Shown here: piece by piece, positions 5,286 to 41,414 of the stretch | How the letters are laid out: the number at the start of each line of letters is the position of its first letter | Numbering within the stretch: position 1 is the first letter of the stretch | Source: a virus | Taxonomy: Duplodnaviria > Caudoviricetes | IMG/VR virus record: IMGVR_UViG_3300027734_000094 | Location: 1 to 53,672 of that record | Strand: one strand, 5' to 3' | Length of the DNA stretch: 53,672 nucleotides | The notes under the pieces: model-generated | Database searches by the model: none | What the model saw: only the letters and a program-made list of their open reading frames with translations | Told to the model about the DNA's origin: nothing | Translations under genes and position numbers: made by a program

Positions 5286-5286
5286 G

Positions 5287-6718: not shown

Positions 6719-6735
6719 CCACACAGGAGCAAACC

Positions 6736-8274: not shown

Positions 8275-8277
8275 GGC

Positions 8278-8305: not shown

Positions 8306-8312
8306 AAGGGAT

Positions 8313-8384: not shown

Positions 8385-8401
8385 ACAACAAGGAGCAAAC
8401 T

Positions 8402-8809: not shown

Positions 8810-8816
8810 GGACACA

Positions 8817-9767: not shown

Positions 9768-10009
9768 TGAGCCAAGGCTATAGTCTGCGCATTCGTGACT
9801 TGAATGCCAAGGCAGATGCGCGCAAGCTGGGCGTTCGTCTTGGGCGGCTGTGCATCGAGCACGATGTACCCGTTTCAGTGCTCGCGCAGCGTATGGGTGT
9901 GACTAGGGCCACGGTGTATAACTGGTTCTGCGGGGCTTCGGCCCCGCAGGCCAACGTCACCACCCCTATTGAAGCCTTCATCGCTACCCTAGAGAACGCC
10001 GCTGCGTAA
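9767..10009 (+). CDS. Cro/XRE-type HTH protein
   Basis: LAQRMGVTRATVYNWFCG. Confidence 0.85.
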   Translation: MSQGYSLRIRDLNAKADARKLGVRLGRLCIEHDVPVSVLAQRMGVTRATVYNWFCGASAPQANVTTPIEAFIATLENAAA

Positions 10010-10024
10010 GCACGGTGTTGGAGA

Positions 10025-10056
10025 TGGTATAACGGGAGCCGTGCCTCACACGGCTC
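10025..10056 (+). promoter_or_regulatory. possible extended -10 followed by an 8-bp hairpin upstream of the primase
   Basis: TGGTATAAC then GAGCCGTG-cctca-CACGGCTC. Confidence 0.35.
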
Positions 10057-10065
10057 TGATATGGG

Positions 10066-12885: not shown

Positions 12886-13063
12886 GTACGAGGTGAACTG
12901 GCGAGGCTTCACCAGAGGCAAGTCGCTGTTCTTCCCCTGCCTAGATACGAAGGCGGCGTGGCGCGAGGTTAGTCCTGTGTTGCGCCGCCTGAGGTTCAAG
13001 GTGGTCTATAAAGGCGTAGTGGACCAGTCTGGAGTTAGGGGTTTACGAATCTGGCGAACGTGA
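12866..13063 (+). CDS. small conserved-type phage protein (ends GLRIWR)
   Basis: G.SLFFPC..GVRGLRIWRT; last gene before terminator. Confidence 0.7.
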   Translation: MRVAGVEYEVNWRGFTRGKSLFFPCLDTKAAWREVSPVLRRLRFKVVYKGVVDQSGVRGLRIWRT

Positions 13064-13109: not shown

Positions 13110-13142
13110 CCCCCGCAGCCCCCCGCGCTGCGGGGGTTTTTT
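13110..13142 (+). terminator. rho-independent terminator where the two arms converge
   Basis: CCCCCGCAGC / GCTGCGGGGG stem plus T6. Confidence 0.85.
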
Positions 13143-16100
13143 ATTGTACGAACCGGCGCTGCGCGGCGATGTCCTTAGGCGCGGTCTTCTTGTCGAACTG
13201 AACGCCTTCCACTGTGCGCGCACGGATTTTACCGCGCGACTTCATGGACTCCTGTACCGTCTTCATGCTGATTACGAACTCAGGGTCCGGATAAGTGCGA
13301 TTGAACGGTACTACGTTATCCTCCCAGAACTGCCGGAAATCATCCTGCGTCTTGAACTCGCCAGCCATAGCTTTGCGCTCGATAGAGTTGAGAATCCCCT
13401 TACGCTCACCTTCGATACGCGTCTCGTTCTTGGCACGGGTGATGTAGTACTCTTGTATGCGACCAAGGCGCGGGGACCGCAGGCCAAGCATGTCGCGGAA
13501 CGAGTCCGCAGCGGTCAGCTCTCCCTTCGGAATGAGGACGTCCCCTCTCCGGTTCTTAATGCCTTCACTCGCGTTGTAGGCTGCAGTGACCCAACTGCGG
13601 GCAAAGGCTGGGGCTATCTTGGTAAGGCCTCCCTTGGTGTCACCTTCTTTGAAGCTGTCCAAAGCCCGCAGGTACTGCGCTACCATGCTCAGCCCGGCGA
13701 TATTGGCTATGGCAGTCTGCACCGCTGTGTCTTCCATAGAGTCGCCCGCGACGGCATCGCGGAACCACATGTTCTTGAGGTCGAGGGTAGTACGGCTTGC
13801 CGTCTCAGTGCCGGTAAGGGCAGATATGGGGCCAGTGGTCAGGATATCTGCGAGCGACATACCCCCCACCTCAATAGCGCCAAACTTGTCGTTCATCCAC
13901 GAGCGGAAGAAGATGTCGGGGTTGTACGCAGTGCGCGGGTCGTCGGAGGCCATCATCGCGCGGACGTCCTCATCATCATCGTCGTCATAACCGAAAGCAG
14001 CCATGAAGGCGTAGGTCATCGCGCTGTACAGCGGCATACCCATGAGGCCACCGAACATACCGGCCATCATCATGACGCCGGAGAACTCCTTTACCGCACC
14101 TGCGCGCTCCGCGCCCGTACCCACTGCCATGTCACGGATAGCGCCCACCATGAACTTGGTCTGCAGAAGCGGATGCATCTTGAACAGGAACAGAGGGCGT
14201 GTGTACGTACCCTTAGCAAGGCTCGGACGCTCAAAGCTGGAGAAGTCGCCCAGCGTATCACGCACGACGCTGACAGCCTGCTCAAGGGCGTAGTTGCGGG
14301 CTTCTTCCTCCGTGGCGTTGGGGTTCTGCTTCTGGTACTTATCAAGCGCTAGCTCGAACGTCATATAGTACGCAGACTGGCGGGTGATGTTCTCGGTACC
14401 TGTGAACAGGAAGCTCATCATCTTACCAGTGACAGCCCCTGTATCCTGTACAACGCGCTTCACGCCGGTTCCCCGGACCTTAGGCACTGAACGTTCGTTC
14501 TGTACGAGCGTGTCAGTCACCATATCGAGGATGCCGCGCTCCTTACCCGCGCGCATAGCCCACTGTAGGTCAGCGTTACTCTTTACGAAGTGCGAGCCAT
14601 TCACGTTGGGCATTATGGCATCGATGCGGTCACCGAACGTAGTGTGCTCACGGTTGACCTTTACCCGGCCAAGGCTATCCCAGACCTGCATGTACTTAAC
14701 CCACATAGCGGTGCCCTTGGCAACGCCGTAGTCGCGCCAGAGACGCGGCACAACGCGGATCGGAATTGAGGTCATATTGAACATCGCTGTCGATGCACTG
14801 GTCAGGTAGTAGTAGTACGCTGCCCGGTTCATCAGGTTCATCGCCGCATTCTGCGGGTCGGGCTTGAGCTCTTGGTTAGCCCGCTTCTCCAGCTCCCGTA
14901 CGAAGATACCCATCTTTGCACGTTCCGTAGTCGGGCGTTCCTTTTCGTTAGCGATATCCCGTGCGATATCCACTGCACCGCGTATCCTACCTGCGTAGGC
15001 GAGTTTGCTAAGCTGATTGGCATACGACGTAGCCTGCTGCCGGAAATGCAGCTCCACGTTAGGTGAGAAACCTGCAATCTCCTTGGCGCGCATCAGGCGG
15101 CGACGGACAGAGCGCTCGGGAGTCGTCTGCAGCCAAGTCTCATAGATAGCACCGACCAGCTCATCCATATCGGTACGGCCTGTGCTATTAGTCTGACTAC
15201 GTGCCTTCTCCACGATATCGAACACGCGCTGCAGGATAGCGTCCTCGCCCTTGATCTGATCCTGCAGCTCCGCGATGTCGTAGCCGGTTTTGATGACTCC
15301 TGAGTTCTTTTCGGGGTCCACACCCAGTCGCGCAGCGACAGCCTTCTGAGCACGTTGCAGCTCCCTCACCGACTCGAAGGTGTGGAACTCTTCCTCACGC
15401 CCGGAAGCCTTATCCTCGCTTACGCGCAGCCAGTACTTACCTTCACGCATGAGAGGGAAGTAGTCCTTGGCGAACAGATCGGAGTTGATATCCCAGAAGA
15501 TATCGCCCGACTTCTTTGCATCATCAGGTGTACTGATCTCGCGCATCAGCTTAGCGCGCATGTCTTGGATGCGGGTCGCCTGTTCCTTGTCGGTAACGCT
15601 GTTGATGCGCTCGTCAAGAAGTGCCAGCTCGGCGTCAAACATGTCTTTATAGAACTCGCGCATCTGCAGGTAGACCTTGTGGCCGTTCTTTTGCTCGCCC
15701 AGCTTCTCCCAAGCGTCGTAGGTATCGCGGATGCGGCGCGTCATCTCAGTGAGCTGCTCGACTTGGGCACTCACCTTCGTGTTGTCGATAGCAGTGGTAG
15801 TAAGCGCCTTGAGCTTGGGGCGCAGATCACCTTTACCCTTTGCGACCAGCTCCTTGATCTCAGCTATGGTGCGCTTGGCCAGCGCCTTGTCGTTCGAGTT
15901 GGCTACGATACGCTTTTCGATTTCGACGAGTACCTTATTGTTCGTCAGCGCCTCATCCCGCGTGGCAAATTCATCCGGCGACACCTCGTTAATACGTGAG
16001 GTGAACATAGCCGTAGCCAGCTGCGCGCTGCCGTACTTGTCAACGAAGTTCCGGATAAGGCGTGCGACCTTGTCGCTGTGCTCATTTATACGGTTCTTCA

Positions 16101-19100
16101 TACTGTTCATTTTATGTACGTAGTCATCCACAGCGGCTAGCGCCGTATGGAACTGCGGAGAGTAGAGCGACTTGGCCCAGTTGAGCAGCCCGGATGTCGG
16201 CATAGCCGTAGCCATACCTTCCATGAACTTAGGGCTGATCGCATCGATGTTCTCGGTAACGGCCTTCTGGTAGATCGACGAGTCATGCGCCGAAGCCATC
16301 TCCTCCATGCCGTCATTCAGCCCCGCAGTGCTAAACGTGTTTTTCACACGTTGCGCGCCCTTGCTCAGAGCCTCGGTAGCGCTCTTCAGCTTCTTGGCAT
16401 TCGGCTTAGAGGTCTTGGGGCGAGCGTACTTAGGTACGAGCGTAGCGCCAATATAGCGCATACCCTTAACTGCGGTGCTCTCCTGTTTTCCGTCCACGAC
16501 CATATCGTGCGCCGCGCGGAGGATAGCGGCTACGTCGCCGTCGCTGATCTTGAGGCTAAAGCCAAGCCTGCGCGCAAAGTCACGCACGACTGTAGCTAGG
16601 CGCTGCATAATTGTAGGTTCGAGCACACCCACTTCGGAGCGCTCTGCAAGAACTTCCTCAACAGCGCGGGCCAGTGGATTGGCGTCCTGTGCGTATGCGC
16701 CCGAGTTAGCCTTCCGCCATTTATCGACTTCAGCCCTGAGGTTGGCGTTACCCCGGTAAAGTGCGGTCAGCACGCCATCAAGATTGTTCCGGAATAGTTT
16801 AGCCAAACCGACATGGCCCAGACCTTCGTGGAACAGGACAGCCTTGACGTCTTCGATGGAGTCGATGTTGTCGGCAATGAGATAGACTGTACCATCAGGA
16901 GCAACGAGACCACGCGCATCGGTAGCGCCATCGCGCTCGATAGCCGCACGCAGCCGGGCGTCCTTGATATCCGCAACAGACTTAACCACGGTTACGGGGT
17001 TAGTGCTCTTCCACTTGGATACGATGTTATCAACGAGAGCCTGCACCTGCTCTATAGGCGTACCCCTAGCGGGCTTGGCAGCGCCCCTACGGTACTTCTG
17101 GACCTTGGCTTCCTTGAGGTCGATCCGAGCATCGCGGGCTTCAACCTTCTCGGCCTTGGTATCCGCGCCTTCCGCCCTACCTAGACGCTCTTGTACTGCT
17201 GCGTTACCGATGCGCTGTTTAGCACCCAGCTTCTCGTCTTGCCGCGTCTCCACCATTGTCTTGAGTGCGGCGCGGGCCGGGTTCAGCAGGCCGTTCTTAA
17301 CCGCAGCGCGGAGGCGTTGGTTGGCCTCCATGCGGGCAGCTTCGGCAGCTTCCTTTTCTTCGGCAGACGCATTGCGTGCGGTGCTAGCGGCGTCCAGTGC
17401 GGCCTTCTCTAGCTTAGCAATAGCGTCGTTGGCTACCTGTTTGCCGTTGACCATACGGTACGCATTGGGGCGGTTCATCCGCTGAAGGAGCTGTGCGCGC
17501 TGGTTGTTGTCAATCTGCCCTGCTTCGCGCGCAGCGTCCACCTCACTGACGAAGCTCTGCACCATACGAGTGGCGACGGTAGGCGCTTCCTGTTCAACTC
17601 GCGCGGGTGACTCAAGCTCTTCAAGCGCAGCGGGGGCCTCGGGGATGTACGGAGTGAGCTCCATCATCCGACCATAGACTTGGTCCGAGAAGTCCTGCAG
17701 CGTTTTGGCCTTCAGCACTTCCTCAGGCTTCTTGCCCAGCCTCGTCTCCGCTACGAGCTTATACGGTGCGTTGGTGTCCGTAGGGTCGTAGTCTACCTTG
17801 TAGACGGCATTCTCAGGAGCCTGCGCACGGAGCGCATACTCAATGTCGCCAAGGGTCTCTTCACGTTGCTCGGCCTCACGCTGCTGAAGTGCCGCAGCGC
17901 GCTCTTGGTTGGCTTGGGCTTCTTGGAGCACCTGCTCCTGTAGTGCGGCTTTCTCTTCCGACGAGGTAAACCGTTGTGCGTTGAACTCCTCGCGCTTGGC
18001 AGCTTCACCCGGCGCTTCCTGCATGGGGAGCGCGCCAAACATATCGGTGGTCTCGGTGTCCTTCGGCCTGCGACCACGCGAGTAGCGCGGGCCGGGGCCA
18101 GAGTCCGCAATGCTATATAGGTCGTCCAATGTCAGCCCGGTCGCGGCTTCCACTTCGCTCTGGAGCTCCGGCTCGACCCCGATACGCCGGATAAGCGCAT
18201 CGGCCTCATTAGGTGAGAAAACGGTGCGGACAGGAGTAGGCGCAGCCTGCGCAGGTGCTCCCCCTGCCTCTTGCTCATAAGCCTGCTGCATAGCAGCCTG
18301 CTCTTCAGGGTCTACCGGAGGTGGAGCGAACTCTTGCTCGGCACCGGGCATACCGGGCGCATTGATATCCGGCTCAGGCGAGGGCTCAGCGCCCGCTGTA
18401 CGCGCAGCGCGCTCCTCTTCCTGCTGCTGACGTAGAGCTTCTTCCTGTCGGGCAAGTGCATCCTTCTGTGCGGCCATACGCTTTACGACCGTGCGCGCTT
18501 CTTCCTCACTAAAGCCGCGCTGGATGAAGCGCTCGACAGCGGCATCCTTGACCTCAGGAGTAGCATTAGGCGGAAGCGCGTCGAGCTCTTTTTTGACATC
18601 TTGGGCGACCCCGGCCCGGACTTCTCGATGCCCGCCGTAAGCACCGGGGATGAGGGACGCGATACCTGCTTCAGCGGCGCGACCGGCAACGCCAGACATT
18701 AGGTCAACATCATACCCGGCGCGCTTCTGCGCTAGGTTACTAGCGTACTGCTCTTGGCCTTCCTGTATGGCTTCAGGGATAGCTTCTTCCGCCGCGCCCG
18801 CAACCATACCTCTAGGCAAGCTACGCTTTACGACTTCGCGCTCAACACCTGCTTCTGCAACCTTAGCCGCTGCCCTACGCCCGATAGCACTACTGATTTG
18901 GCGCGGGAGGCCGGTTGCCGAAGCAACAGCACCAAGAACGGTACCTAGCGCAATCTGGTCGAGATTCTCCCCGCCATATTCCTGCGCCTTGGTAGCAGCG
19001 GCGGTAGCCTGCTCTTCGTTGGCACCGTGCTCGCGCGATGCGCGGTACATAGCGTCGTAGATGTCACCCTTAATTGCGCCAGCGCCCGAAGCAGCGCCGA

Positions 19101-19614
19101 GCATGAGGGGAACCCCCGCACCTCCCGTAGCAACAGCAGCCCCGATAAATGGAAGCGCAGAGCCGACAAGGTTAGCGGTTGACTCCAACGGCGAGGAAAG
19201 GAAGTTCTGCCCTGCAGCTGCGATCTCCCCCAGCGCGCCCTTACCCTTGGCGGCTTCGCTGCGCGCTGCGTTGATCTTCTCCTGCCCGCGAGATTCCGAA
19301 GAACGCAGATCGTGCGCGTACTGGCTCACATCTTCTAGCGCATTGGACGCGACGTTGCCCGCACCAAAGACATCAGTAAGGGTCTTGCCTACCCCAGTAA
19401 GACCTTCAAACGCCTGAAGGGGGATATCCGCAAGGTACGCTGCTGCGTTACCGACAACACCTGACCGCTCCAGAGCATTCTCAGGCTGCGGTGGGATACC
19501 CGCTTCAGGGAACTTACCTAGGACGTCTGCGACTACCTGCTGTTTGGTCAACCCATCAGGACCGTTAACGCGGTAAATAACGCCGTTCTTACCGGTGATC
19601 TGATAGGTGGGCAT
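13141..19614 (-). CDS. giant internal virion (ejection) / polyvalent protein with zincin-like motif
   Basis: 2157 aa, helical, last gene of the virion arm; HEGLGH..EEVLAE; hydrophobic stretches. Confidence 0.75.
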   Translation of the reverse strand: MPTYQITGKNGVIYRVNGPDGLTKQQVVADVLGKFPEAGIPPQPENALERSGVVGNAAAYLADIPLQAFEGLTGVGKTLTDVFGAGNVASNALEDVSQYAHDLRSSESRGQEKINAARSEAAKGKGALGEIAAAGQNFLSSPLESTANLVGSALPFIGAAVATGGAGVPLMLGAASGAGAIKGDIYDAMYRASREHGANEEQATAAATKAQEYGGENLDQIALGTVLGAVASATGLPRQISSAIGRRAAAKVAEAGVEREVVKRSLPRGMVAGAAEEAIPEAIQEGQEQYASNLAQKRAGYDVDLMSGVAGRAAEAGIASLIPGAYGGHREVRAGVAQDVKKELDALPPNATPEVKDAAVERFIQRGFSEEEARTVVKRMAAQKDALARQEEALRQQQEEERAARTAGAEPSPEPDINAPGMPGAEQEFAPPPVDPEEQAAMQQAYEQEAGGAPAQAAPTPVRTVFSPNEADALIRRIGVEPELQSEVEAATGLTLDDLYSIADSGPGPRYSRGRRPKDTETTDMFGALPMQEAPGEAAKREEFNAQRFTSSEEKAALQEQVLQEAQANQERAAALQQREAEQREETLGDIEYALRAQAPENAVYKVDYDPTDTNAPYKLVAETRLGKKPEEVLKAKTLQDFSDQVYGRMMELTPYIPEAPAALEELESPARVEQEAPTVATRMVQSFVSEVDAAREAGQIDNNQRAQLLQRMNRPNAYRMVNGKQVANDAIAKLEKAALDAASTARNASAEEKEAAEAARMEANQRLRAAVKNGLLNPARAALKTMVETRQDEKLGAKQRIGNAAVQERLGRAEGADTKAEKVEARDARIDLKEAKVQKYRRGAAKPARGTPIEQVQALVDNIVSKWKSTNPVTVVKSVADIKDARLRAAIERDGATDARGLVAPDGTVYLIADNIDSIEDVKAVLFHEGLGHVGLAKLFRNNLDGVLTALYRGNANLRAEVDKWRKANSGAYAQDANPLARAVEEVLAERSEVGVLEPTIMQRLATVVRDFARRLGFSLKISDGDVAAILRAAHDMVVDGKQESTAVKGMRYIGATLVPKYARPKTSKPNAKKLKSATEALSKGAQRVKNTFSTAGLNDGMEEMASAHDSSIYQKAVTENIDAISPKFMEGMATAMPTSGLLNWAKSLYSPQFHTALAAVDDYVHKMNSMKNRINEHSDKVARLIRNFVDKYGSAQLATAMFTSRINEVSPDEFATRDEALTNNKVLVEIEKRIVANSNDKALAKRTIAEIKELVAKGKGDLRPKLKALTTTAIDNTKVSAQVEQLTEMTRRIRDTYDAWEKLGEQKNGHKVYLQMREFYKDMFDAELALLDERINSVTDKEQATRIQDMRAKLMREISTPDDAKKSGDIFWDINSDLFAKDYFPLMREGKYWLRVSEDKASGREEEFHTFESVRELQRAQKAVAARLGVDPEKNSGVIKTGYDIAELQDQIKGEDAILQRVFDIVEKARSQTNSTGRTDMDELVGAIYETWLQTTPERSVRRRLMRAKEIAGFSPNVELHFRQQATSYANQLSKLAYAGRIRGAVDIARDIANEKERPTTERAKMGIFVRELEKRANQELKPDPQNAAMNLMNRAAYYYYLTSASTAMFNMTSIPIRVVPRLWRDYGVAKGTAMWVKYMQVWDSLGRVKVNREHTTFGDRIDAIMPNVNGSHFVKSNADLQWAMRAGKERGILDMVTDTLVQNERSVPKVRGTGVKRVVQDTGAVTGKMMSFLFTGTENITRQSAYYMTFELALDKYQKQNPNATEEEARNYALEQAVSVVRDTLGDFSSFERPSLAKGTYTRPLFLFKMHPLLQTKFMVGAIRDMAVGTGAERAGAVKEFSGVMMMAGMFGGLMGMPLYSAMTYAFMAAFGYDDDDDEDVRAMMASDDPRTAYNPDIFFRSWMNDKFGAIEVGGMSLADILTTGPISALTGTETASRTTLDLKNMWFRDAVAGDSMEDTAVQTAIANIAGLSMVAQYLRALDSFKEGDTKGGLTKIAPAFARSWVTAAYNASEGIKNRRGDVLIPKGELTAADSFRDMLGLRSPRLGRIQEYYITRAKNETRIEGERKGILNSIERKAMAGEFKTQDDFRQFWEDNVVPFNRTYPDPEFVISMKTVQESMKSRGKIRARTVEGVQFDKKTAPKDIAAQRRFVQ

Positions 19615-19626: not shown

Positions 19627-21264
19627 CTACATCTGACCGTAGTCTGTAGTTACCACTTGTTGCTTACCGCCGCCAGTGGGGGTCACTACCGGAAGCCCGG
19701 TGCTAGGGTCAAAGCCTCCTGACTGTTGACCACTCGGCATACGGTTAACGACTTCCTGCATCGCCATAACACGCAGCTCTTCATTGCTCTTGGAGTTCGG
19801 CGGTAGACGTTTACCGTTGACGATCAAATTGCCAATAGCGTTACGCCGCACGTAATCCGCAAATATATCTTTGGCAAAGCGCTCCCTGAAGTCCAACGAC
19901 TCCGGACGCATAGCTGCGATATCCCTCTGAGCCGCAATCTCTTCGCGGGTGAGCTCGCCCTGCTGCTTCAGCCTCTCTACATCAAGCCCGTACCCCTTCG
20001 CAAACTGCTCGGCACGGATGCCTTCCTGCCACAGCGGGACAACTGCCTTGAAGTTCTCCGCAGCCTCCTTGCGGTCGCGGGCACCGAGCTCCATGAGACC
20101 TTCGATAGCGCGATCCTTCGTCTCCTTGCGCTCCTTCTTGCTGGCGCGGGCACCCGGCAGTGCAGCTGCTGCTGCTTCACCAATAGCCTGCAGGACGAAC
20201 GGCGATTTGGATGATGCCATGTTGAAGCCGATTTCTGCGAGCGTAGCCCACATGTCTTCCTTGCGCTGCTTCTCGTAATCCTCGTCTGATGCACGTTCAG
20301 TCAGCATAGCTCGGTACTTGTCCGTAGCCGCGACCTCGTCATCCGACTTCTTGTTGATCGTACCCATCATACCCATAAGGTCTTGCAGCGACCCCGCACG
20401 GCCAGCGGCTGAGTCTGTATTACGTTCAGGTATCGCAGCTGCAGCGTTGAGACCACCAAGTTCGGAAACGTAGTTGCGTGTCTCGCTCGGGATACGCTCT
20501 GCGGGGGAGCCTGCATCGCGCCACTTCTGGTAGTTACCCGGACCCCAGTTATAAGCCATGGCCCCGCCAACATCACCGTACTTCTTACGTAGGGCCAGCG
20601 CGAGATCACTACCGACGCGGTTGTACTCCTCCGGAGTCTCCGCAGAAACAGGGTCTACACCATAGCCGGGATCACGTGCGGTCGAAGGCAGTACTTGCAT
20701 AGCATACATCGCACCAGCCCGACTGCGCAGCGGCTTGCCGTTTTTATCGTAGTCGCGGCCCCGGCTCTCTTTGCGACGGATATAGTCAAGGTACTCCTTG
20801 TCCGTCATGCCACCCCCAGCAAACGCAACCAGACCGCCGCCTGCGTAGCCCTCGTCGAAGCCGCCATTGCTCGACTCGTCGAACATGGTGTCGGGGATAT
20901 CGAGACCGACGATACCGCCTTCGGCCATACCCATAGGGGGACCTTCAGGTGCGGGCATAGCGCCCATTTCGGGCGGCGGTGCCATGGACGGCGCACCCTG
21001 CGGCAGCGCTTCCAACCCCCCGGGAGAGGCAGGAGAGGGCGGGGAGGCGGCGGGTGCACCGCCCATGACCTGTTGGGCGACTGTGGGAGGATTAGCACCT
21101 TCCATAGTCTGCGGACTACGCATGCGATCAATGAACATACCGGCAAGGACGCCAGCCGTGGGATCGACGATACCAAGCTGCATAGCTTGGCCGATCTTCT
21201 GTTTGTTGCCACCGTACTCCTTGGCGATGTCTTCCGGCGACTGGATGCTGAACGGCTTAGCCAC
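19627..21264 (-). CDS. internal virion protein with lytic transglycosylase (SLT) domain
   Basis: KESRG, GAMYAMQVLPSTA, AMAYNWGPG; MAEGG/YAGGG/FAGGG motifs. Confidence 0.85.
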   Translation of the reverse strand: MAKPFSIQSPEDIAKEYGGNKQKIGQAMQLGIVDPTAGVLAGMFIDRMRSPQTMEGANPPTVAQQVMGGAPAASPPSPASPGGLEALPQGAPSMAPPPEMGAMPAPEGPPMGMAEGGIVGLDIPDTMFDESSNGGFDEGYAGGGLVAFAGGGMTDKEYLDYIRRKESRGRDYDKNGKPLRSRAGAMYAMQVLPSTARDPGYGVDPVSAETPEEYNRVGSDLALALRKKYGDVGGAMAYNWGPGNYQKWRDAGSPAERIPSETRNYVSELGGLNAAAAIPERNTDSAAGRAGSLQDLMGMMGTINKKSDDEVAATDKYRAMLTERASDEDYEKQRKEDMWATLAEIGFNMASSKSPFVLQAIGEAAAAALPGARASKKERKETKDRAIEGLMELGARDRKEAAENFKAVVPLWQEGIRAEQFAKGYGLDVERLKQQGELTREEIAAQRDIAAMRPESLDFRERFAKDIFADYVRRNAIGNLIVNGKRLPPNSKSNEELRVMAMQEVVNRMPSGQQSGGFDPSTGLPVVTPTGGGKQQVVTTDYGQM

Positions 21265-21274
21265 TTATATCTCC

Positions 21275-22246
21275 TTAACCTTGGAGCATCTTGTACGTGC
21301 TATACGCACCAAGCCCGCCGCCAAGCAACTGCGATGCCACCGAGGGGGGCGGAGCATACGAGGTCTGTGTGCTGTTGAGCTGCATCGGGAGGCCGCGCAG
21401 CAGGTTGCTGAAGTACCCCAGCTGCTCCATCGGGTAGTCGCGCTGGCGCAGGAAGTCACCGTACTGCTGGTCAAGATACTGCTGCTGCATCTGCTGCTGC
21501 TGGCCCGCTGCCGCGCCCTGAGCCCCGAGGCGTTGGATATCCGCGTTCTGCTGGTACTGGCCAAGGTTACCAAGTGTCTGACCCATCTGCCCCGCAGCCT
21601 GCAGCCCTGCAAGGCCTTGACCCGCACCGAACTGACGCGACTGCTCCGAGAGGCGCTGGGATTCCATCCCTGCCATGCGGTCACGCTCGAACTGGCTCTG
21701 CGCGTTCTCGTACGCCGCCTGCTGACCGCGCGCCTGAATATCGCCAAGCTGCGTACCCAGATTGCGCTCCCGCTCAAGGGAGGCAAGGAGCTGGCGGGAG
21801 CCACCATAGGTACCCTGACGCGCAGCACCGAGGTCTTCGGCAAGCTGCGACTTCTGAGCATCCCGCGTAGCTTCGCGCTTCTGCACGTCCATAACATTCT
21901 GGGCGTACGGAGACATGTACTGTTTGGCTTCAGCCCCGCCAAACGAGCTCGCGTTGAACTGCTTCGGGTCGTACTTCTGGTTAAGCGCACCGAGGCCCGC
22001 CTGATACGCAAGTGCCGAACCAGTACCGAACTGGTTGGGTGACCCCATCCCGAGCGTGTTCTGCTGAATCTGCTGCTGCGCAGGTGTGAACCCGGCAATC
22101 CGCTGACCGCTGTAGGGAGTGTACTGCTGGTATGACTGCGCCTGCGCGCGGTTCATCATGTTCTCGAAATACGGACGTGCGTATTCCGGCAGGTTCGACG
22201 TAGTACTTGTTACGTTCTGTTGGGTTGGTGTGCTAGGACTACCCAT
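21275..22246 (-). CDS. internal virion / DNA pilot-like protein
   Basis: Q/G/A-rich, YMSPY..V, GGSRQ; synteny. Confidence 0.7.
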   Translation of the reverse strand: MGSPSTPTQQNVTSTTSNLPEYARPYFENMMNRAQAQSYQQYTPYSGQRIAGFTPAQQQIQQNTLGMGSPNQFGTGSALAYQAGLGALNQKYDPKQFNASSFGGAEAKQYMSPYAQNVMDVQKREATRDAQKSQLAEDLGAARQGTYGGSRQLLASLERERNLGTQLGDIQARGQQAAYENAQSQFERDRMAGMESQRLSEQSRQFGAGQGLAGLQAAGQMGQTLGNLGQYQQNADIQRLGAQGAAAGQQQQMQQQYLDQQYGDFLRQRDYPMEQLGYFSNLLRGLPMQLNSTQTSYAPPPSVASQLLGGGLGAYSTYKMLQG

Positions 22247-22247
22247 A

Positions 22248-22667
22248 TTAGACCCCTACCTCAAAATGCTGACTGGTAAGTTTACTGCCGTCTGGCCTGA
22301 ACACTCTAGCCCAACCAACACGCCCACCGGCTTCTATAGCATCGCACTCGTTATCCCTAGCCCAAGACTTGAGTGTTTCAAACATGGGAGTTTTCCAACC
22401 CCAACCGTCAGTGCCACCGCAATACTCTATGAACAGGTACTTCTTCCGTGGGTACTGCACAAAACGGGTTATGACGACGCCCTTAATACCGTCTTCGTTG
22501 AACGCAATCCACAGCGGATATCCATACTCAACTAGGAGAGAATACACGTCTTCCAGCTCGTACTTACCCGACGCATGCTCCAGCGCGCTGGTAATATACG
22601 GCGCTACGTCTGGCCACACATCATCGATAAGTCCTTGCGGTACAAGGGAAACCTTATACTCGCTCAT
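22248..22667 (-). CDS. GNAT-like virion assembly protein
   Basis: WA...C..IE..GR.GW pattern; located between nozzle and ejection genes. Confidence 0.55.
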   Translation of the reverse strand: MSEYKVSLVPQGLIDDVWPDVAPYITSALEHASGKYELEDVYSLLVEYGYPLWIAFNEDGIKGVVITRFVQYPRKKYLFIEYCGGTDGWGWKTPMFETLKSWARDNECDAIEAGGRVGWARVFRPDGSKLTSQHFEVGV

Positions 22668-24490
22668 GCAAGCCCCCTACGTAGGTGGGTATCCGTACCA
22701 CGCCCCGCGCGTTTGCGCGCCTTATGAGCCTTGTCCATGAGAGCGTAGAGCTTCTTGGTGCCGCGCTTCTCATCGCCGCCACCCACACGGCGCACCGCCT
22801 CGGACGAGAAGATTACCTCATCACGGGCTACACGCGCTTCCTGCTTACCTCCGATACGCGCAGGGACAGAGTCGCTCACACCATCACCAGCGCCGCGAAC
22901 CGGGTGCCCGCCCATACGCGAGAGAAGCTCAATACCCGCGTTGCTGCTACCATTACCCAGCTCAGAGACCGTACGCGCATCCACGACGAACGAGCCATCG
23001 TTCATATTGATCTTACCGCCAGTAGCCACTTCTACCCGCTTGGTACGGTCGCCACCCGCCCCACCATAGCGACTGTAGTACTCATATGGTGTGGTAGGCG
23101 TGGGTGTAGCCGGAGTCTTGGTCGCAGGCGTAGGCGTAGGCGTAGGCGTAGGCGCAGTTACATACTTGGAGAGGTCGATGGGGCCGTAGCCGGGAATATT
23201 GATTACCCCTCCAGAAAACCCAGCGCCCGTGCTAGTGCTCACCGGGGGAGTCTTGAAAGCATGCGCCTCTTCTTTCATCGGCGCAGCGGACTGGACCGGG
23301 TACATAGAGGCAGTAACCGGGCCGGGGCTGCTAGACTGGAAGTAGGACACGAGGTCATTGAAGCCTGCGTCCTTGGAGGGGGCCTTGGCAGTGCCGCCCT
23401 CAGCTAGACCATAGACACTGCGCTCCTGCTCCGTAACCTCACTCGACGGGCGGTAACCCGGCACAGGGTTGGACGGCGTAAAGTACATAGCTTCCGAGCT
23501 ATCCATGTTATACGGATCATACGGCCTAGGGGCAGAGACTTGGCGGGGGCTAGGGAGGTAGGGACCCTTATAGTTAGACTTTTCCTTACTCGGATCGTAC
23601 TTAGGCATATCAGGGGTAGCCACCTGAGACACGGTGTTCAGCACGCCGGAAGCCGCCAGCATAGGCGCGGCGTTAGCGATAATACCCTTCGGGAGCCCCG
23701 CCTTGGCGGCATCACCGAACTTAGAGAAGAAGCCCGCGCCATTAGCGCCAGTCTGTGCGGCTGAGTTTGCAAGCGCTGCCTGCCCTGTCGCTGCGGCGGA
23801 GGCCGGAGTAATAGCCCCTCCAAAAACGGGCGCAGTTACGTTACCCATACCAGCCGGTGCAGCGATAGTGGGGGCAACACTGGGTATAGCAGTAGCAGCA
23901 CCAGCCCCCATATTAGCACCGAGAATACCGGCCTTGTCGCCCAGTGCACCGAAGGCATTCGAAGATAGCTCACCACCAAGACCAGCAGCGCCAGCAAGGG
24001 AAGCGCCACCGAATGCACCGAGGCCTGCCATGAGACCCTTCCTCAGGTCACCTGTGAGTGCAGTCTGACCAAGGCCTACGATACCAGCAGCGAGGGGGGC
24101 ACCAACGCCGGTAGCCGCCAGAACGCCGCCTAGCAGTGTGGGCAGCAGCTTGCCGAGCCAGCCAGCTTCAGGAAGGCCAGTGTGGGGGTTAGTGGTAAGA
24201 GAGCCACCCGACGCCATAGCCAGACCCTGCAGGCTGTTAACCTCGTTAGGGGTCATGTGGACAAGGACGGAGTCATCACCACGACCCATATCCTGAAGCT
24301 GCTTCGCCATCGGGTTACTAGCAACGGAGAGGCCCGGCTGCGCTGGAAGGCCACCGGTAGTACCGGGAATTTGCGGACCCAGAGTAGGACCAGTGGACAT
24401 ACCGGACCCACCCGCTGGGGTATAGGGGGAAGTCATCTGGGGAGGAGCCGTGAGCGCTTGCATGTAATCACCCTTACCGTATGGCGGCAC
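22664..24490 (-). CDS. internal virion protein with tape-measure-type GxGDGxSDSVPA domain
   Basis: GRGDDSVLVHM..NPHTGLPEA, glycine zipper, DGSFVV, GAGDGVSDSVPARI..DEVIF; start may be 24463. Confidence 0.7.
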   Translation of the reverse strand: MPPYGKGDYMQALTAPPQMTSPYTPAGGSGMSTGPTLGPQIPGTTGGLPAQPGLSVASNPMAKQLQDMGRGDDSVLVHMTPNEVNSLQGLAMASGGSLTTNPHTGLPEAGWLGKLLPTLLGGVLAATGVGAPLAAGIVGLGQTALTGDLRKGLMAGLGAFGGASLAGAAGLGGELSSNAFGALGDKAGILGANMGAGAATAIPSVAPTIAAPAGMGNVTAPVFGGAITPASAAATGQAALANSAAQTGANGAGFFSKFGDAAKAGLPKGIIANAAPMLAASGVLNTVSQVATPDMPKYDPSKEKSNYKGPYLPSPRQVSAPRPYDPYNMDSSEAMYFTPSNPVPGYRPSSEVTEQERSVYGLAEGGTAKAPSKDAGFNDLVSYFQSSSPGPVTASMYPVQSAAPMKEEAHAFKTPPVSTSTGAGFSGGVINIPGYGPIDLSKYVTAPTPTPTPTPATKTPATPTPTTPYEYYSRYGGAGGDRTKRVEVATGGKINMNDGSFVVDARTVSELGNGSSNAGIELLSRMGGHPVRGAGDGVSDSVPARIGGKQEARVARDEVIFSSEAVRRVGGGDEKRGTKKLYALMDKAHKARKRAGRGTDTHLRRGLA

Positions 24491-38529: not shown

Positions 38530-38778
38530 TTACTTCCCTTTCTTGAACCCCTTCAGCACCTGCGCGAAGCGGGCACGCTGACCGAGCTTACCGGGAGCCT
38601 TCGCAGCTTTGGCCAGAGCCTTACTCGGAATCTTCTTACCTTCCGGCACGCCCATCTGCTTGTGCAGCGCACCGGGCTTCTTGATGGCCTTGGAGATATC
38701 CAGCTTGCCGCCCTTGGCCATGGCCTTGTTGGGCACCTTGGACTTCTTCATGTCACCCATGCCGCGAGACGCGCGCAT
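38530..38778 (-). CDS. small basic protein with MAKGG motif
   Basis: TGATG-coupled start; MAKGG then AIKKPGALH..GVP.GKKIP. Confidence 0.75.
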   Translation of the reverse strand: MRASRGMGDMKKSKVPNKAMAKGGKLDISKAIKKPGALHKQMGVPEGKKIPSKALAKAAKAPGKLGQRARFAQVLKGFKKGK

Positions 38779-39062
38779 CAGCACATACCCCCGCGCTTCA
38801 TGGCAACCTGCTTGCCCTTGGTCTTACCCTTCTTAGCAATACCATCGGCGCGGGATGACACAGAGCCACCAGCAGCGTAGCCCATCTTACCCATAGCGCC
38901 GAGCTTAGGCTTGGGTGCCGGAGCCGCCTTCTTCGGCGTGGGTTCGTAAGGCGTACGGTTACCGCGAGCCACGATAGCCTTATCGCTACCAAGGGTAGCG
39001 CGGTAGGTGTCGATAGGCTTGCGCTTCGACTCCATGAGCGGCTTGGTCTTCTTGTCTACCAT
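38778..39062 (-). CDS. tagged basic protein (array member)
   Basis: YAAGGSVSSRADGIAKKGKTKG..MKRGGMC. Confidence 0.8.
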   Translation of the reverse strand: MVDKKTKPLMESKRKPIDTYRATLGSDKAIVARGNRTPYEPTPKKAAPAPKPKLGAMGKMGYAAGGSVSSRADGIAKKGKTKGKQVAMKRGGMC

Positions 39063-39074
39063 CTTGTGTTCCTT

Positions 39075-39809
39075 TCAGCGTGCTTTGGTCTTGCCACGGA
39101 TGGCGCAACCGTCGATGGAGCCACCCTTGGCGAGCTTCTTGGTGGTAAACGCATCAGGGTTATTACGCCATGCAGGCACACCCGCCATATCTTTAGCTTC
39201 CTTATCCTTCTTGGCTGCTGCCTCTGCGGCAACATTACGGCGTTGGCGTAGGCCCTCCAGCGCACCCCTCCTGACCGCCTTAATAGGGGTAGGGGCGGCC
39301 CTCTCTTCCACATAAGAAGAAACGTCCTTCATCCCCGGAGTACGCTTCAAGAAAGAAGGGGCACCCACGCTACCAAACGGGCCAGCATCTTGAGGGGGGT
39401 TCCCACGCACGACAGGAGGGGCACCCTTGGGGGTAGGGGGCGTTCTACGCTCGGCGGGGGCCTTAGCAGCAGGCGCATCGCGCTTGACAGTGGGCTTAGG
39501 AGTAGAACCCGCCATACGGGCTACCTTCTTCTCTCCGCGCCATGTGAAGGTCTCTTTATTCGGATCACGGCCAGCCTTGATCGCTGCCGCACGAGCAGCC
39601 TTGAAGGCGGAACCGAAGCTGCCTGCGTCAGACATACCTTGCTTCGTCTTTGCGCCGATCTTGGAGACGGCTTCGTCCAGACCCTTGTCCAGACGCTTCG
39701 TCGAGTACGCGTGAGGCGAGGCCGAAGAGGGCTTATCGATAGCCATCTGGACACCAGATATACGCGAACCGTACTTCTGCAGGTCTTTATCCTTGAGCTT
39801 ACGTGCCAT
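39075..39809 (-). CDS. tagged basic protein (array member)
   Basis: Start MARKLK via TGATG overlap; SFGSAFKAAR..FTWRG; ends LAKGGSIDGCAIRGKTKAR. Confidence 0.8.
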   Translation of the reverse strand: MARKLKDKDLQKYGSRISGVQMAIDKPSSASPHAYSTKRLDKGLDEAVSKIGAKTKQGMSDAGSFGSAFKAARAAAIKAGRDPNKETFTWRGEKKVARMAGSTPKPTVKRDAPAAKAPAERRTPPTPKGAPPVVRGNPPQDAGPFGSVGAPSFLKRTPGMKDVSSYVEERAAPTPIKAVRRGALEGLRQRRNVAAEAAAKKDKEAKDMAGVPAWRNNPDAFTTKKLAKGGSIDGCAIRGKTKAR

Positions 39810-39982
39810 CACTTCTTCCCCATCCAACGCTGCACAGTCTCCGTCTCGTAGATACGGATAGCCGTCCACACAATCGTGAAGATCGCTGCCACTGCCGGAA
39901 GCACGCTGATCATAGTCCCCAGCACAGTTGCAAACGATAACACGTCTATAGCATATTTTGTGGCTTCATCATGGTCAGTCAT
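39809..39982 (-). CDS. 57-aa membrane protein (holin-like), absent from ORF track
   Basis: Hand translation MTDHDEATKYAIDVLSFATVLGTMISVLPAVAAIFTIVWTAIRIYETETVQRWMGKK; fills the gap exactly. Confidence 0.7.
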   Translation of the reverse strand: MTDHDEATKYAIDVLSFATVLGTMISVLPAVAAIFTIVWTAIRIYETETVQRWMGKK

Positions 39983-39983
39983 G

Positions 39984-40244
39984 TCAGCAGTCCCACTTCT
40001 GCAAAGACAATGCCTTACGTGTCGGGCGACCCTTCTCGTCCTTCATAGGACCGGGCATTCCCGACATCCGGGCACAGAAGCTCTTGCGGCGACCCGCAGC
40101 TTTAGGCGACTTCTTGGCCTGCTCCGAGCTTACGGGCGGCTTCAGATTCATACCCTGCTTCTTTGCGGAGGCACGCCCTTTGGCGTTAAGGCCACCCTTA
40201 GGGTTCTTGCCTTCCTTACGAGTCCAAGCCGGAGTTTTTGCCAT
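39984..40244 (-). CDS. small basic conserved phage protein
   Basis: AW.RKEGKNPKGGLNAKGRAS..RRKSFCARM..ALSL.KW.C. Confidence 0.8.
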   Translation of the reverse strand: MAKTPAWTRKEGKNPKGGLNAKGRASAKKQGMNLKPPVSSEQAKKSPKAAGRRKSFCARMSGMPGPMKDEKGRPTRKALSLQKWDC

Positions 40245-40552
40245 TACACGAACCTCCCCTTGGTCTTACCCTTGGTAGCGCAGCCATCAGCGCGCGACGA
40301 GGCCGAGCCGCCCTTAGCCATCTTCTTGGCCTTGGCTTTGCCGCCACGCTTCATACCGTCACCTGAGTCGGACACCACAGTATCGCCCTTGGCTGCTTTA
40401 GCGGCTTTACGGCGTTTCTCATCCGCCGTGTCGGTTTCACCGATAACATGCATAAGTGGACTGATCTTGCGTAGGTTGCCGAACATGCCTTCGCCGCTGG
40501 CCATACCGTAGACTGGGGAAATAGACCCGAGAATCTTGTCGAGCTTAGCCAT
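40244..40552 (-). CDS. tagged basic protein (array member)
   Basis: Ends MKRGGKAKAKKMAKGGSASSRADGCATKGKTKGRFV. Confidence 0.85.
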   Translation of the reverse strand: MAKLDKILGSISPVYGMASGEGMFGNLRKISPLMHVIGETDTADEKRRKAAKAAKGDTVVSDSGDGMKRGGKAKAKKMAKGGSASSRADGCATKGKTKGRFV

Positions 40553-40974
40553 TACACGAACCTCCCCTTGGTCTTACCCTTGGTAGCGCAGCCATCAGCG
40601 CGCTTGGAGGCAGAAGAGACCGAGCCGCCCTTAGCATAACCACGAGTTTTGTAGCTCTCGATAAGGCGCTTACGGCCTTCCCCCGAGTCTTTCAGCACCC
40701 GAGCCTTAAGACGCTTTGCAGCGGCGGCGCTATGCTTGATGCTCTTACTAGTTGGGAAATCGCCCATAGTATCATACGCATCTTCGCTGCTTTTAACCTT
40801 ATTCGCTTTATCGCCGTAGTAGCTAGCAGCCATAGACTGAGACTTCTGCAGGGCATGGTCTGCAGTATCAACCTTATCCCAGAACGACTTGCTATCCTTC
40901 TGCATAGCACGGTAATAGTTTTTCTCGTAGGGGCCAGTTTCCGTGAGTTTATCAGCGTTATTCTTCTTAGCCAT
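40552..40974 (-). CDS. tagged basic protein (array member)
   Basis: Ends YAKGGSVSSASKRADGCATKGKTKGRFV. Confidence 0.85.
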   Translation of the reverse strand: MAKKNNADKLTETGPYEKNYYRAMQKDSKSFWDKVDTADHALQKSQSMAASYYGDKANKVKSSEDAYDTMGDFPTSKSIKHSAAAAKRLKARVLKDSGEGRKRLIESYKTRGYAKGGSVSSASKRADGCATKGKTKGRFV

Positions 40975-41414
40975 TACACGAACCTCCCCTTGGTCTTACC
41001 CTTGGTAGCGCAGCCATCAGCGCGCGACGAGGCCGAGCCGCCCTTAGCCATCTTCTTGGCCTTGGCTTTGGCTTTGACCTTGCCACCTTCAGCAAAACGG
41101 AAACTAAGTCTGGCACCGACACCACCCGGTGCGTACGGGCCGGGAGCCCCTGAACCAGCAAACTGCACTGCAGAAGGCATCTGAGCCGGGCTAATCCCGC
41201 CAAAAGTGAGCTTGGGGCCGGTAATGGGTTTGCCAGCCGGGCCTCTGGAGGAGGTAATACCCCCCTTCATGTCATCTGCGGCCCTGCTAGACCTCATCTT
41301 AGACAGATCAAACTGAGACGGGCTAATCCCACCCTGAGGAGCCATAACCGTCATAGGTGCACCGGCTGTAGTAGGCCCGCCATCAGCAAAGCGCTTCATC
41401 TTCCTAGCCATCAT
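40974..41414 (-). CDS. tagged basic protein (array member)
   Basis: FADGG near N-terminus, FAEGG, ends MAKGGSASSRADGCATKGKTKGRFV. Confidence 0.85.
   Translation of the reverse strand: MMARKMKRFADGGPTTAGAPMTVMAPQGGISPSQFDLSKMRSSRAADDMKGGITSSRGPAGKPITGPKLTFGGISPAQMPSAVQFAGSGAPGPYAPGGVGARLSFRFAEGGKVKAKAKAKKMAKGGSASSRADGCATKGKTKGRFV

What the first reader, a model, noticed from the sequence alone, without database searches (positions are those of the whole stretch)
20809..24330. The AxGG motif recurs in ejection proteins, beside a tape-measure-type domain that normally follows it
Seen: MAEGG, YAGGG and FAGGG in the SLT protein sit between a Pro-rich linker and the enzyme domain. LAEGG, VATGG and MASGG occur in the 608-aa protein, which also has DGSFVV..V and GAGDGVSDSVPA..DEVIF segments. 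From recalled family knowledge, siphophage tape-measure C-termini contain FAxGG.V.GPG..TSDSIPA.LS.GE.V as one unit. Here more than a dozen AxGG-like peptides are spread over about nine proteins while one protein holds the downstream domain. Inference: AxGG is a trans-acting docking or cleavage signal recognised by this domain, sorting cargo into the head or ejection conduit.
Basis: partly seen in the sequence, partly recalled or inferred. Interest (0 to 1): 0.7.

Follow-up and report, generated by a model that had tools for sequence, protein, structure and literature searches.

The report
Shared peptide motif on phage ejection proteins
A five-residue peptide (bulky residue, Ala, any, Gly, Gly) recurs far above chance on the injected proteins of this short-tailed phage, next to a domain otherwise found in tape measure proteins of long-tailed phages; it looks like an assembly or docking tag, but what binds it is unknown.

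Summary
[FYML]AxGG occurs 15 times in 9 of 61 proteins, against 2.35 expected (0 of 400 shuffles reach 15; permuted control motifs are at chance). The motif sits in the SLT protein, the 608-aa protein and a block of small basic proteins.

In 34 non-redundant related loci it is confined to the SLT homologs (58 motifs, 21 of 21 proteins) and the 608 homologs (78 motifs, 33 of 34). The other ejection proteins and the fibres are at chance.

The 608-aa C-terminus is homologous to a tape-measure unit. hhalign gives 97.4% to a Gordonia TMP, and the unit hits 536 phage records, almost all annotated as TMPs. In TMPs the same motif flanks the unit.

AlphaFold2 places the motifs in low-confidence segments at module borders.

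Three divergent podophage lineages that have the domain also carry the motif on unrelated late proteins. One relative without the domain does not.

Recognition by the 608 domain is not shown, and no protease was found. The scan noted this motif before, on an HMO-2011-type phage (e1-3537959).

The parts
22664..24490 (-). 608-aa ORF: a tape-measure-like ejection protein. The real start is probably Met10, because most homologs begin there and the Atlas record starts at residue 10. A database cluster calls it 548 aa.
   Evidence: More than 2102 homologs at E<=1e-3. No Pfam or NCBIfam family. Conserved synteny with the 139-aa, 323-aa, SLT and 2157-aa genes.
22667..23014 (-). C-terminal domain (res 493-608). 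It consists of two tape-measure-type 'hook' units (DGSFVVDARTVSELGNGSSNAG.. and GAGDGVSDSVPARIGG..ARDEVIF..AVRRVGGG) followed by a basic helix.
   Evidence: 5311 cluster representatives at E<=1e-3. hhalign 97.4% to a Gordonia TMP and 95.9% to the DSL-LC04 C-terminus. AF2 pLDDT is 75-97 over this range. No PDB fold match.
23015..23029 (-). VATGG (res 488-492), the motif copy directly at the N-terminal border of the hook domain.
   Evidence: 29 of 30 complete homologs have X-A-x-G-G here (Y 19, F 6, L 3, R 1). Model residues 10-32 have pLDDT <50 and the fold starts at residue 34.
23393..23407 (-). LAEGG (res 362-366), the mid-protein copy.
   Evidence: Conserved as YG[FM]A[EKD]GG in most rows of A1, with G366 nearly invariant. 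It is absent where the segment is deleted.
24161..24295 (-). N-terminal conserved module (res 66-110): GRGDDSVLVHMTPNEVNSLQGLA-MASGG-SLTTNPHTGLPEA. MASGG lies at 24203-24217.
   Evidence: Invariant columns in A1. 32 of 34 homologs have a strict [FYML]A.GG directly before [SD]L[ST].NP. This module also hits the DSL-LC04 'tape measure' protein.
23966..24163 (-). Gly/Ala-rich hydrophobic segments (about res 110-175), of the membrane-insertion type seen in tape measure proteins.
   Evidence: Read directly from the sequence and its conservation in A1. The membrane role is inferred.
19627..21264 (-). 545-aa ejection protein with a lytic transglycosylase (SLT) domain.
   Evidence: PF01464 at res 154-250, E 1.4e-5. 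PHROG virion structural and lytic tail families.
20809..20928 (-). Motif cluster of the SLT protein (res 113-152): MAEGG..IPDTMFDE..NGG..YAGGGLVAFAGGG.
   Evidence: 58 motifs in 21 of 21 homologs, against 2.9 expected. The cluster is kept even where the enzyme cassette after it differs or is missing. AF2 pLDDT <50 over res 53-153.
21275..22246 (-). 323-aa DNA ejection protein, without the motif.
   Evidence: phrog_4287, E 2.9e-18. Homologs have 4 motifs in 29 proteins, against 3.3 expected.
22248..22667 (-). 139-aa protein of unknown function, without the motif.
   Evidence: phrog_7642, E 2.7e-4. 0 motifs in 17 homologs.
13141..19614 (-). 2157-aa giant internal protein. It has one VATGG and no [FYML]A.GG.
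   Evidence: phrog_10089 (DarB-like), E 5.7e-22. 0 motifs in 12 homologs, against 2.7 expected.
38530..41414 (-). Block of seven ORFs, six of them small basic proteins that carry the motif (38530-38784, 38778-39062, 39075-39869, 40244-40552, 40552-40974, 40974-41414). The motif usually comes before a tail of the type S.SSRADGCATKGKTKGRFV.
   Evidence: 9 motifs against 0.27 expected in 7 proteins totalling 916 aa. Relatives give 116 motifs in 1178 unique ORFs, against 23.4 expected. DNA repeats were found.

Best explanation
Phi-A-x-G-G (Phi = F, Y, M or L) is a short linear motif on proteins that leave the virion with the DNA.

The 608-aa protein is the podophage counterpart of a tape measure protein. 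It has a conserved N-terminal module, Gly/Ala-rich hydrophobic segments, and a C-terminal domain made of two copies of the G.G..SD.IPA.L..GE.V 'hook' unit of siphophage tape measure proteins.

In TMPs and here, the motif lies in a flexible segment right at the border of that unit. Further copies lie in disordered linkers. One set precedes the exchangeable cell-wall-hydrolase cassette of the 545-aa protein. Others precede the basic tails of the small Lys-rich proteins.

Most likely the motif is a docking peptide that folds on binding, probably as a short strand ending in a Gly-Gly turn. It would tie these proteins into one internal or ejection assembly.

Shown: enrichment, conservation, homology of the domain to TMPs, and the predicted disorder of the motif segments. 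Inferred: docking, and the nature of the partner. The hook domain is one candidate; the portal, the tail channel or self-association are others.
For: - Enrichment not explained by composition: 15 against 2.35 expected, with controls at chance.
- Conservation in exactly two ortholog groups across 34 non-redundant loci, at fixed alignment positions.
- In small proteins of 80 MCP-neighbour loci: 116 against 23.4 expected. The motif precedes at least five different basic modules.
- Sub-alignments share only the pentapeptide (hhalign probability <2%), so it behaves as an independent element.
- The motif segments are low-confidence in AF2 while the neighbouring domains are confident.
- Homology of the domain to TMPs.
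- The motif flanks the unit in TMPs: 6 of 10 have it directly upstream, and 5 of 10 have a second copy 35-45 aa downstream.
- The motif cluster is kept while the enzyme cassette behind it is swapped among two SLT types, an M23-like domain, an M15-like domain, or none.
- DSL-LC04 and MW202545 (portals 43.5% and 29.8% identical) also carry the motif on unrelated late proteins: 4 against 0.72 and 7 against 0.52.
- HTVC023P, which lacks the domain, gives 4 against 2.18, all in Gly-rich or capsid proteins.
Against: - No binding partner is identified.
- No virion proteomics exists for this clade, so 'ejected' rests on gene position and PHROG names.
- The three largest non-motif ejection proteins must get into the virion without the motif.
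- TMPs sit in tails, not heads, so a single 'head-sorting' role cannot cover all occurrences.
- In the siphophage PfII40a the motif is found only in the TMP itself: 3 against 1.52 for the whole genome.
- Part of the count is paralogy (99% identical 104-nt repeat).
- The co-occurrence sample is small (five lineages) and is confounded by shared ancestry.
Confidence: 0.45

Rival explanations
1. One reading: the motif is read in trans specifically by the 608-aa C-terminal hook domain. That domain thereby collects cargo (the SLT enzyme and the small basic proteins) for the head or the ejection conduit.
For: The domain and trans motif-bearing proteins co-occur in 3 of 3 podophage lineages examined. 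Both are absent from HTVC023P. The motif always adjoins the domain in cis, as would be expected if the domain has a groove for it.
Against: There is no direct evidence of binding. The siphophage PfII40a has the unit but no trans motifs. All 30 complete homologs keep the domain, so there is no natural loss to test. Co-occurrence can be explained by shared ancestry.
Confidence: 0.2
2. The motif is a passive structural junction: a hinge or cap (hydrophobic anchor plus Gly-Gly turn) at module borders. It spreads together with modules by recombination and has no partner of its own.
For: It always lies at borders of conserved modules and of swapped cassettes. It is predicted flexible. DNA repeats show that tails move between genes.
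Against: A mere linker would not keep Phi, Ala and both Gly invariant across lineages whose portals are only 30% identical. Nor would it occur in tandem clusters of 2-5 copies. Ordinary linkers in the other 30 late proteins lack it: 1 against 1.06.
Confidence: 0.25
3. The motif is a proteolytic maturation site (cut at or after Gly-Gly) that releases enzyme domains or basic peptides.
For: Gly-Gly sites are used by other viral proteases (general knowledge, recalled). TMPs of T5 are cleaved (PMC10038345, passages read), and JBD30 TMP cleavage is speculated to lie just after the unit (PMC11445458, passages read). The motif precedes the hydrolase cassette.
Against: No protease family was found in 10 + 11 + 18 proteins scanned in Pfam, nor in the 63 scanned in PHROGs, other than capsid-protease fusion families that match over the capsid part. 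The known T5 cut is after an Arg, not at this motif. Tandem copies 3-8 residues apart make poor sense as cut sites.
Confidence: 0.07
4. The recurrence is an artefact of Gly/Ala-rich composition and recent gene duplication.
For: The proteins are Gly- and Ala-rich. Two tails are 99% identical at the DNA level.
Against: Per-protein shuffles keep composition and never reach the observed count (0 of 400). Permuted motifs are at chance. The motif is conserved at fixed sites in non-paralogous proteins and in distant lineages.
Confidence: 0.03

Closest known systems
The 'hook' segment of siphophage tape measure proteins (JBD30 gp46 residues 1022-1066, PDB entry 8rk3 sequence; also two copies in mycobacteriophage Douge gp16, 8zdo)
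   Same: Same sequence unit, G.G..SD.IPA.L..GE.V plus helices. Phi-A-x-G-G lies directly before it. The predicted strands-plus-two-helices architecture matches the JBD30 authors' AlphaFold description (PMC11445458, section 16 passages).
   Different: Here the unit is duplicated and sits at the C-terminus of a 608-aa protein in a phage with podophage-type gene order, not in a tail-lumen ruler. In JBD30 and Douge the unit was not resolved experimentally. Its anchoring role is the JBD30 authors' speculation, made by analogy with T5 pb2 (PMC10038345).
Podophage ejection (internal virion) proteins: T7 gp14-16, P22 gp7/gp20/gp16, cyanophage A4 gp26-29
   Same: A cluster of genes after the tail and fibre genes. 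It includes a cell-wall hydrolase protein and a giant protein. A4 likewise has four proteins, including a lytic transglycosylase/peptidase protein and one of more than 1700 residues (PMC12002296, passages read).
   Different: The 608-aa or SLT proteins have no detectable sequence relation to solved ejection proteins. No shared peptide motif or tape-measure-type domain appeared in the passages of those papers that I read.
T4 capsid targeting sequence of internal proteins IPI-III
   Same: A short peptide shared by otherwise unrelated proteins that end up inside the particle.
   Different: The T4 sequence is N-terminal and is removed by the prohead protease (recalled). Here the copies are internal or near the C-terminus, are often tandem, also occur in tail tape measure proteins, and no protease was found.

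Membership tests
Tape-measure 'hook' unit (G.G..SD.IPA.L..GE.V module) | Sequence signature and significant similarity to the unit in annotated tape measure proteins | tested here: met
   hhalign 97.4% (E 1.1e-11) to the Gordonia Burnsey TMP and 95.9% to the DSL-LC04 C-terminus. tblastn finds 84 phage records, mostly TMPs, with best E 1e-4. The single-unit form hits 536 records, almost all TMPs.
Tape-measure 'hook' unit (G.G..SD.IPA.L..GE.V module) | Phi-A-x-G-G immediately N-terminal of the unit | tested here: met
   29 of 30 complete 608 homologs. 6 of 10 sampled TMPs have it 2-4 residues upstream; the other 4 have xAGGG-type variants.
Tape-measure 'hook' unit (G.G..SD.IPA.L..GE.V module) | Short beta-hairpin plus two helices | tested here: met
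   AF2 model: strands 35-37 and 42-44 with helices 46-52 and 57-66, then strands 82-87, 91-96 and 100-102 with helices 104-110 and 115-135. The comparison is with a published prediction, not with a solved structure.
Tape-measure 'hook' unit (G.G..SD.IPA.L..GE.V module) | Anchors the ejected protein to the tail tip or channel | not testable with these tools
   This is only speculated for JBD30 (PMC11445458).
Tape measure protein (whole protein) | Encoded between tail assembly chaperones and the distal tail protein of a long-tailed phage; carries TMP Pfam domains | tested here: not met
   No tail tube, chaperone or TMP family was found in the window. The gene lies between the fibre genes and the ejection genes. 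The DSL-LC04 homolog's 'tape measure' label rests on the shared unit.
Podophage ejection / internal virion proteins | Co-linear gene block with a hydrolase-bearing protein and a giant protein, downstream of the tail genes | tested here: met
   SLT domain, phrog_4287 DNA ejection protein, phrog_10089 giant protein. Synteny is seen in 74 loci.
Podophage ejection / internal virion proteins | Presence in virions and release on infection | not testable with these tools
   No cultured member of this clade and no proteomics were found.
Capsid targeting / maturation-cleavage signals (T4 CTS, Gly-Gly protease sites) | A cognate phage protease and a terminal position of the signal | tested here: not met
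   No protease family was found. The motifs are internal, C-proximal or tandem.

The most novel reading that the evidence does not exclude
Phi-A-x-G-G and the hook unit form one peptide-domain docking system, shared by long-tailed and short-tailed phages.

In tape measure proteins, the flanking motifs of one chain would bind the hook of a neighbouring chain and lock the trimer at the tail tip or after ejection.

In this podophage lineage the same code would have been extended in trans. A tape-measure-like organiser would then recruit exchangeable cargo for co-injection: cell-wall hydrolases, PcfJ-like proteins and small DNA-binding basic proteins. That would amount to a modular address label for phage-injected proteins.
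Probability: 0.15. Interest if true: 0.8.

Novelty: new variant of a known kind. Interest (0 to 1): 0.55.

Why it matters
How internal and ejected proteins are selected for the virion, and how they reassemble in the cell envelope, is open for most podophages.

A short, conserved, transferable peptide on such proteins would give a testable handle: peptide binding, tag swapping and cargo loading.

A tape-measure unit in a podophage ejection protein also ties the two kinds of DNA-conduit protein together by sequence homology, not only by analogy.

The phage group is very abundant in metagenomes.

Tried and rejected
- **Complex prediction** of the 608 C-terminal domain (A2, residues 25-149) with the SLT motif cluster (A3, residues 98-165). 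The verdict was 'no answer', score 0.00, and the controls were not run. This is no evidence either way.
- **Fold searches** with the domain model. Foldseek against the PDB gave 0 matches at E<=1e-3. VIA-align wide gave a best Z of 3.9. So there is no usable structural relative, which does not show that the fold is new.
- **PDB by sequence** with profiles A1 and A3 gave nothing meaningful.
- **Family libraries.** Pfam and NCBIfam found no family for the 608-aa protein, its ends, or the small basic proteins.
- **DNA similarity.** blastn of the region against 50,697 phage records found no match.
- **Search among longer proteins** for TMP-sized relatives of the domain gave only 17 hits, none with TMP Pfam domains. 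The word index limits this search.
- **ESM Atlas** returned only unnamed viral clusters.
- **My idea that the SLT cluster and the 608 N-terminal module are degenerate hook units** was rejected. hhalign aligns only the pentapeptide, with probability <2%.
- **Looking for homologs that lost the domain** found none. The 4 of 34 without it are cut by contig ends.
- **Literature.** Searches for the motif strings gave 2 unrelated papers, and 121 papers of which none of the 15 listed concerns phages. The HMO-2011 papers did not mention the motif in the passages searched. I did not open any supplements.
Full report
**What the window is.** The 53,672-base window is the whole assembly. It is a phage genome with replication genes on the plus strand at 31-13063 (DNA polymerase, helicase, primase). 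A long minus-strand late operon runs from 52140 down to 13141. In order it encodes:
- terminase, portal, a Cpn10-like protein and the capsid protein;
- a glycosyltransferase and a block of small basic proteins;
- two SU10-type adaptors, tail proteins, an endolysin and fibres;
- five genes that look like an ejection-protein block: 608 aa, 139 aa, 323 aa (phrog_4287, 'DNA ejection protein'), 545 aa with an SLT domain, and 2157 aa (DarB-like PHROG).

No tail tube, tail chaperone or tape measure family was found, so the gene order is that of a short-tailed phage. There is no nucleotide match among 50,697 phage records. The portal is 40-45% identical to those of pelagiphages HTVC023P and HTVC027P, roseophages CRP-901 and CRP-902, and the metagenomic phage DSL-LC04.

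**The observation.**
- Over my 61 gene calls (17,085 aa), [FYML]A.GG occurs 15 times in 9 proteins, against 2.35 +/- 1.53 in per-protein shuffles. None of 400 shuffles reaches 15.
- Six permuted or substituted control patterns are at chance, and one is mildly high (6 against 2.32; 17 of 400 shuffles reach it).

The excess lies in two places. The ejection block has 5 against 0.70, all in the SLT and 608-aa proteins. The small basic block at 38530-41414 has 9 against 0.27. The remaining 30 late proteins have 1 against 1.06, and the 19 plus-strand proteins have 0 against 0.32.

One caution applies. The tails of two small genes share 104 nt at 99% identity, so some copies are recent duplicates.

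**Conservation.** The 608-aa family is very large. More than 2102 proteins score E<=1e-3 among 8000 scored candidates. The C-terminal 149 residues alone hit 5311 cluster representatives.

From 74 related IMG/VR loci I kept 34 that differ by more than 15% in this protein. In them the motif is confined to two ortholog groups:
- SLT homologs: 58 copies in 21 of 21 proteins (2.9 expected; maximum 9 in 100 shuffles).
- 608 homologs: 78 copies in 33 of 34 proteins (11.8 expected; maximum 26).

All other groups are at or below chance:

| Group | Motifs | Proteins | Expected |
|---|---|---|---|
| 2157-aa homologs | 0 | 12 | 2.7 |
| 323-aa homologs | 4 | 29 | 3.3 |
| 139-aa homologs | 0 | 17 | 0.3 |
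| 648-aa fibre/tail group | 0 | 34 | 2.3 |
| 624-aa fibre/tail group | 3 | 28 | 4.2 |
| 775-aa fibre/tail group | 1 | 21 | 1.2 |
| ORFs with no window homolog | 8 | 198 | 10.0 |

So 'ejection proteins' in general is too broad. Two of the five carry the motif.

Within the 608 family the three sites are fixed:
- LAMAxGG sits before SLTxNPxTGLPEA. 32 of 34 homologs have a strict copy.
- YG[FM]AxGG sits mid-protein.
- [YFL]AxGG sits just before the C-terminal domain: 28 of 30 complete homologs, plus one R and one LKAGG variant.

In the SLT family the order is an N-terminal helical domain, a Pro-rich linker, and then MAxGG..LP.PD.MFDEP.NGG..YAGGG.VAFAxGG. This is kept even though the enzyme segment that follows varies. 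It is an SLT domain of two kinds, an M23-like or an M15-like peptidase segment, or nothing, before a conserved helical C-terminal half.

In 80 loci around the capsid gene, 1178 unique ORFs hold 116 copies, against 23.4 expected. 64 of the 90 motif-bearing ORFs are 160 aa or shorter. [MYF]AKGG precedes at least five different basic modules.

**The domain.**
- tblastn of the 608-aa C-terminus finds 84 phage records at E<=5, including 67 Gordonia and 6 Tsukamurella phages. The hits lie almost entirely under 'tape measure protein' features, with best E 1e-4.
- hhalign of a 40-sequence profile gives 97.4% (E 1.1e-11) to the Burnsey TMP over both halves of the domain. It gives 95.9% to the C-terminus of the DSL-LC04 759-aa protein.
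- That DSL-LC04 protein sits in the same gene order as here, yet is annotated 'tail tape measure protein'.
- Its single-unit C-terminus hits 536 phage records at E<=0.01: Gordonia 160, Mycobacterium 154, Arthrobacter 42, Burkholderia 39, Vibrio 32, Pseudomonas 26. Nearly all listed hits are TMPs.

In ten sampled TMPs the motif stands 2-4 residues before the unit in six; the other four have AGGG-type variants. A second copy follows 35-45 residues after the unit in five. In the seven sampled TMPs from phages of Gram-negative hosts and of Streptomyces the unit lies within about 140 residues of the C-terminus. In the Arthrobacter, Mycobacterium and Corynebacterium TMPs it lies about 60-70% along.

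By sequence the unit is present in two PDB entries: JBD30 gp46 (8rk3) and Douge gp16 (8zdo, two copies). The papers resolve only the last 33 and 42 residues of those proteins. For JBD30 the authors predict that residues 1022-1066, which is this unit, form a hook of two helices and a beta-hairpin. They speculate that the hook anchors the cleaved TMP in the baseplate, by analogy with T5 pb2 (passages read in PMC11445458, PMC13033339 and PMC10038345).

My AlphaFold2 model of residues 460-608 has mean pLDDT 80.6 and pTM 0.70. It folds residues 493-608 into two strands-plus-two-helices units and a long basic helix. Model residues 10-32, which hold all but the last Gly of VATGG, are below 50. No PDB fold match was found.

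The SLT protein model has mean pLDDT 62. Residues 53-153, which hold the linker and all three motifs, are below 50, between better-modelled domains.

**Cis or trans.** Sub-alignments of the SLT cluster and of the 608 N-terminal and middle modules share only the pentapeptide with the hook domain (probability <2%). The motif is therefore an independent short element rather than a remnant of the unit.

I compared whole late regions of other phages:

| Phage | Hook unit | Motif on other late proteins |
|---|---|---|
| DSL-LC04 | yes; 3 cis copies | MANGG on a 645-aa protein; three N-terminal copies on an 825-aa 'PcfJ-like' protein between terminase and portal; YAKGG near the end of a 114-aa basic protein (4 against 0.72 in 30 CDS) |
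| MW202545 (portal 29.8% identical) | yes; 4 cis copies | 5 copies on a 449-aa protein after the capsid gene; 2 on an 890-aa protein between terminase and portal (7 against 0.52 in 19 CDS) |
| HTVC023P | none; no 608 homolog | 4 against 2.18 in 60 CDS, all in Gly-rich fibre-like or capsid proteins |
| PfII40a (siphophage) | in its TMP | 3 against 1.52 in 52 CDS; only the TMP copy is canonical |

So, among the podophages examined, the motif on 'other' proteins goes with the presence of the hook-bearing protein. This fits a linked system but also fits shared ancestry, and the sample is small.

**Reading.** The most economical account is as follows. The 608-aa protein is a tape-measure-like ejection protein. 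Phi-A-x-G-G is a short linear motif at flexible module borders of proteins that travel with the DNA. It probably acts as a docking or strand-addition peptide that holds them in one assembly.

A passive junction element is the main rival. Cleavage is unlikely, because no protease family was detected and tandem copies sit only 3-8 residues apart.

That note is an untested reading on related viruses, not independent evidence.

I found no paper describing the motif (listings only).

Noticed in passing
window 38530-41414 (minus strand); relatives L078-L157: A family of small Lys-rich proteins built from interchangeable short modules placed after [MYF]AKGG. The modules include S.ASKRADGCA.KGKTKGR, KLDISKAIKKPGALR, KTNAQMKKLGRNLAK, ESKVNEAGNYTKPGMRK and LYANIAAKKKRIA. 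Many end in GG.C. Neighbouring genes are DUF6321 (39984-40244) and a weak DUF5872 match (38131-38529).
   Followed up: partly
window 40237-40340 and 40967-41070: A 104-nt direct repeat that is 99% identical (a third copy at 40545-40648 is 70% identical). It covers the C-terminal tails of adjacent small genes and indicates recent duplication or gene conversion.
   Followed up: partly
window 41411-42148 (minus strand): A GT2-type glycosyltransferase (PF13506, E 5e-7) lies directly upstream of the small basic protein block, inside the structural operon. Its target is unknown.
   Followed up: no
alignment A3 (SLT homologs), columns about 215-400: The cell-wall hydrolase segment is an exchangeable cassette between a conserved N-terminal part and a conserved helical C-terminal part. 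Different relatives carry two kinds of SLT-like segment, an M23-like segment (L061), an M15/VanY-like segment (L058, L051), or none.
   Followed up: partly
window 13141-19614 (minus strand): The 2157-aa giant protein carries an HEGLGH (zincin-like HExxH) motif. It matches only the C-terminal part of a DarB-like PHROG and has no Pfam family.
   Followed up: no
window 28599-30926 (minus strand): The 775-aa fibre-like protein holds about nine tandem copies of an 18-residue repeat (AVAETATLTDAQSASST..).
   Followed up: no
window 24464-24490: The 608-aa ORF probably starts at Met10. Most homologs begin there, and the Atlas record starts at residue 10. One database cluster instead calls a 548-aa form.
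   Followed up: partly
L003 11883-14162 (DSL-LC04) and L170 10344-12821; L171 13690-16362 (MW202545): The DSL-LC04 homolog is annotated as a tail tape measure protein although the gene order is podophage-like. Large proteins encoded between terminase and portal in DSL-LC04 (825 aa, 'PcfJ-like') and MW202545 (890 aa) carry the motif. The window has no counterpart at that position.
   Followed up: partly
window 45960-46400, 33395-34054 and 37427-38134 (minus strand): A Cpn10/GroES-like gene sits in the head module, and there are two paralogous SU10-type adaptor proteins.
   Followed up: no
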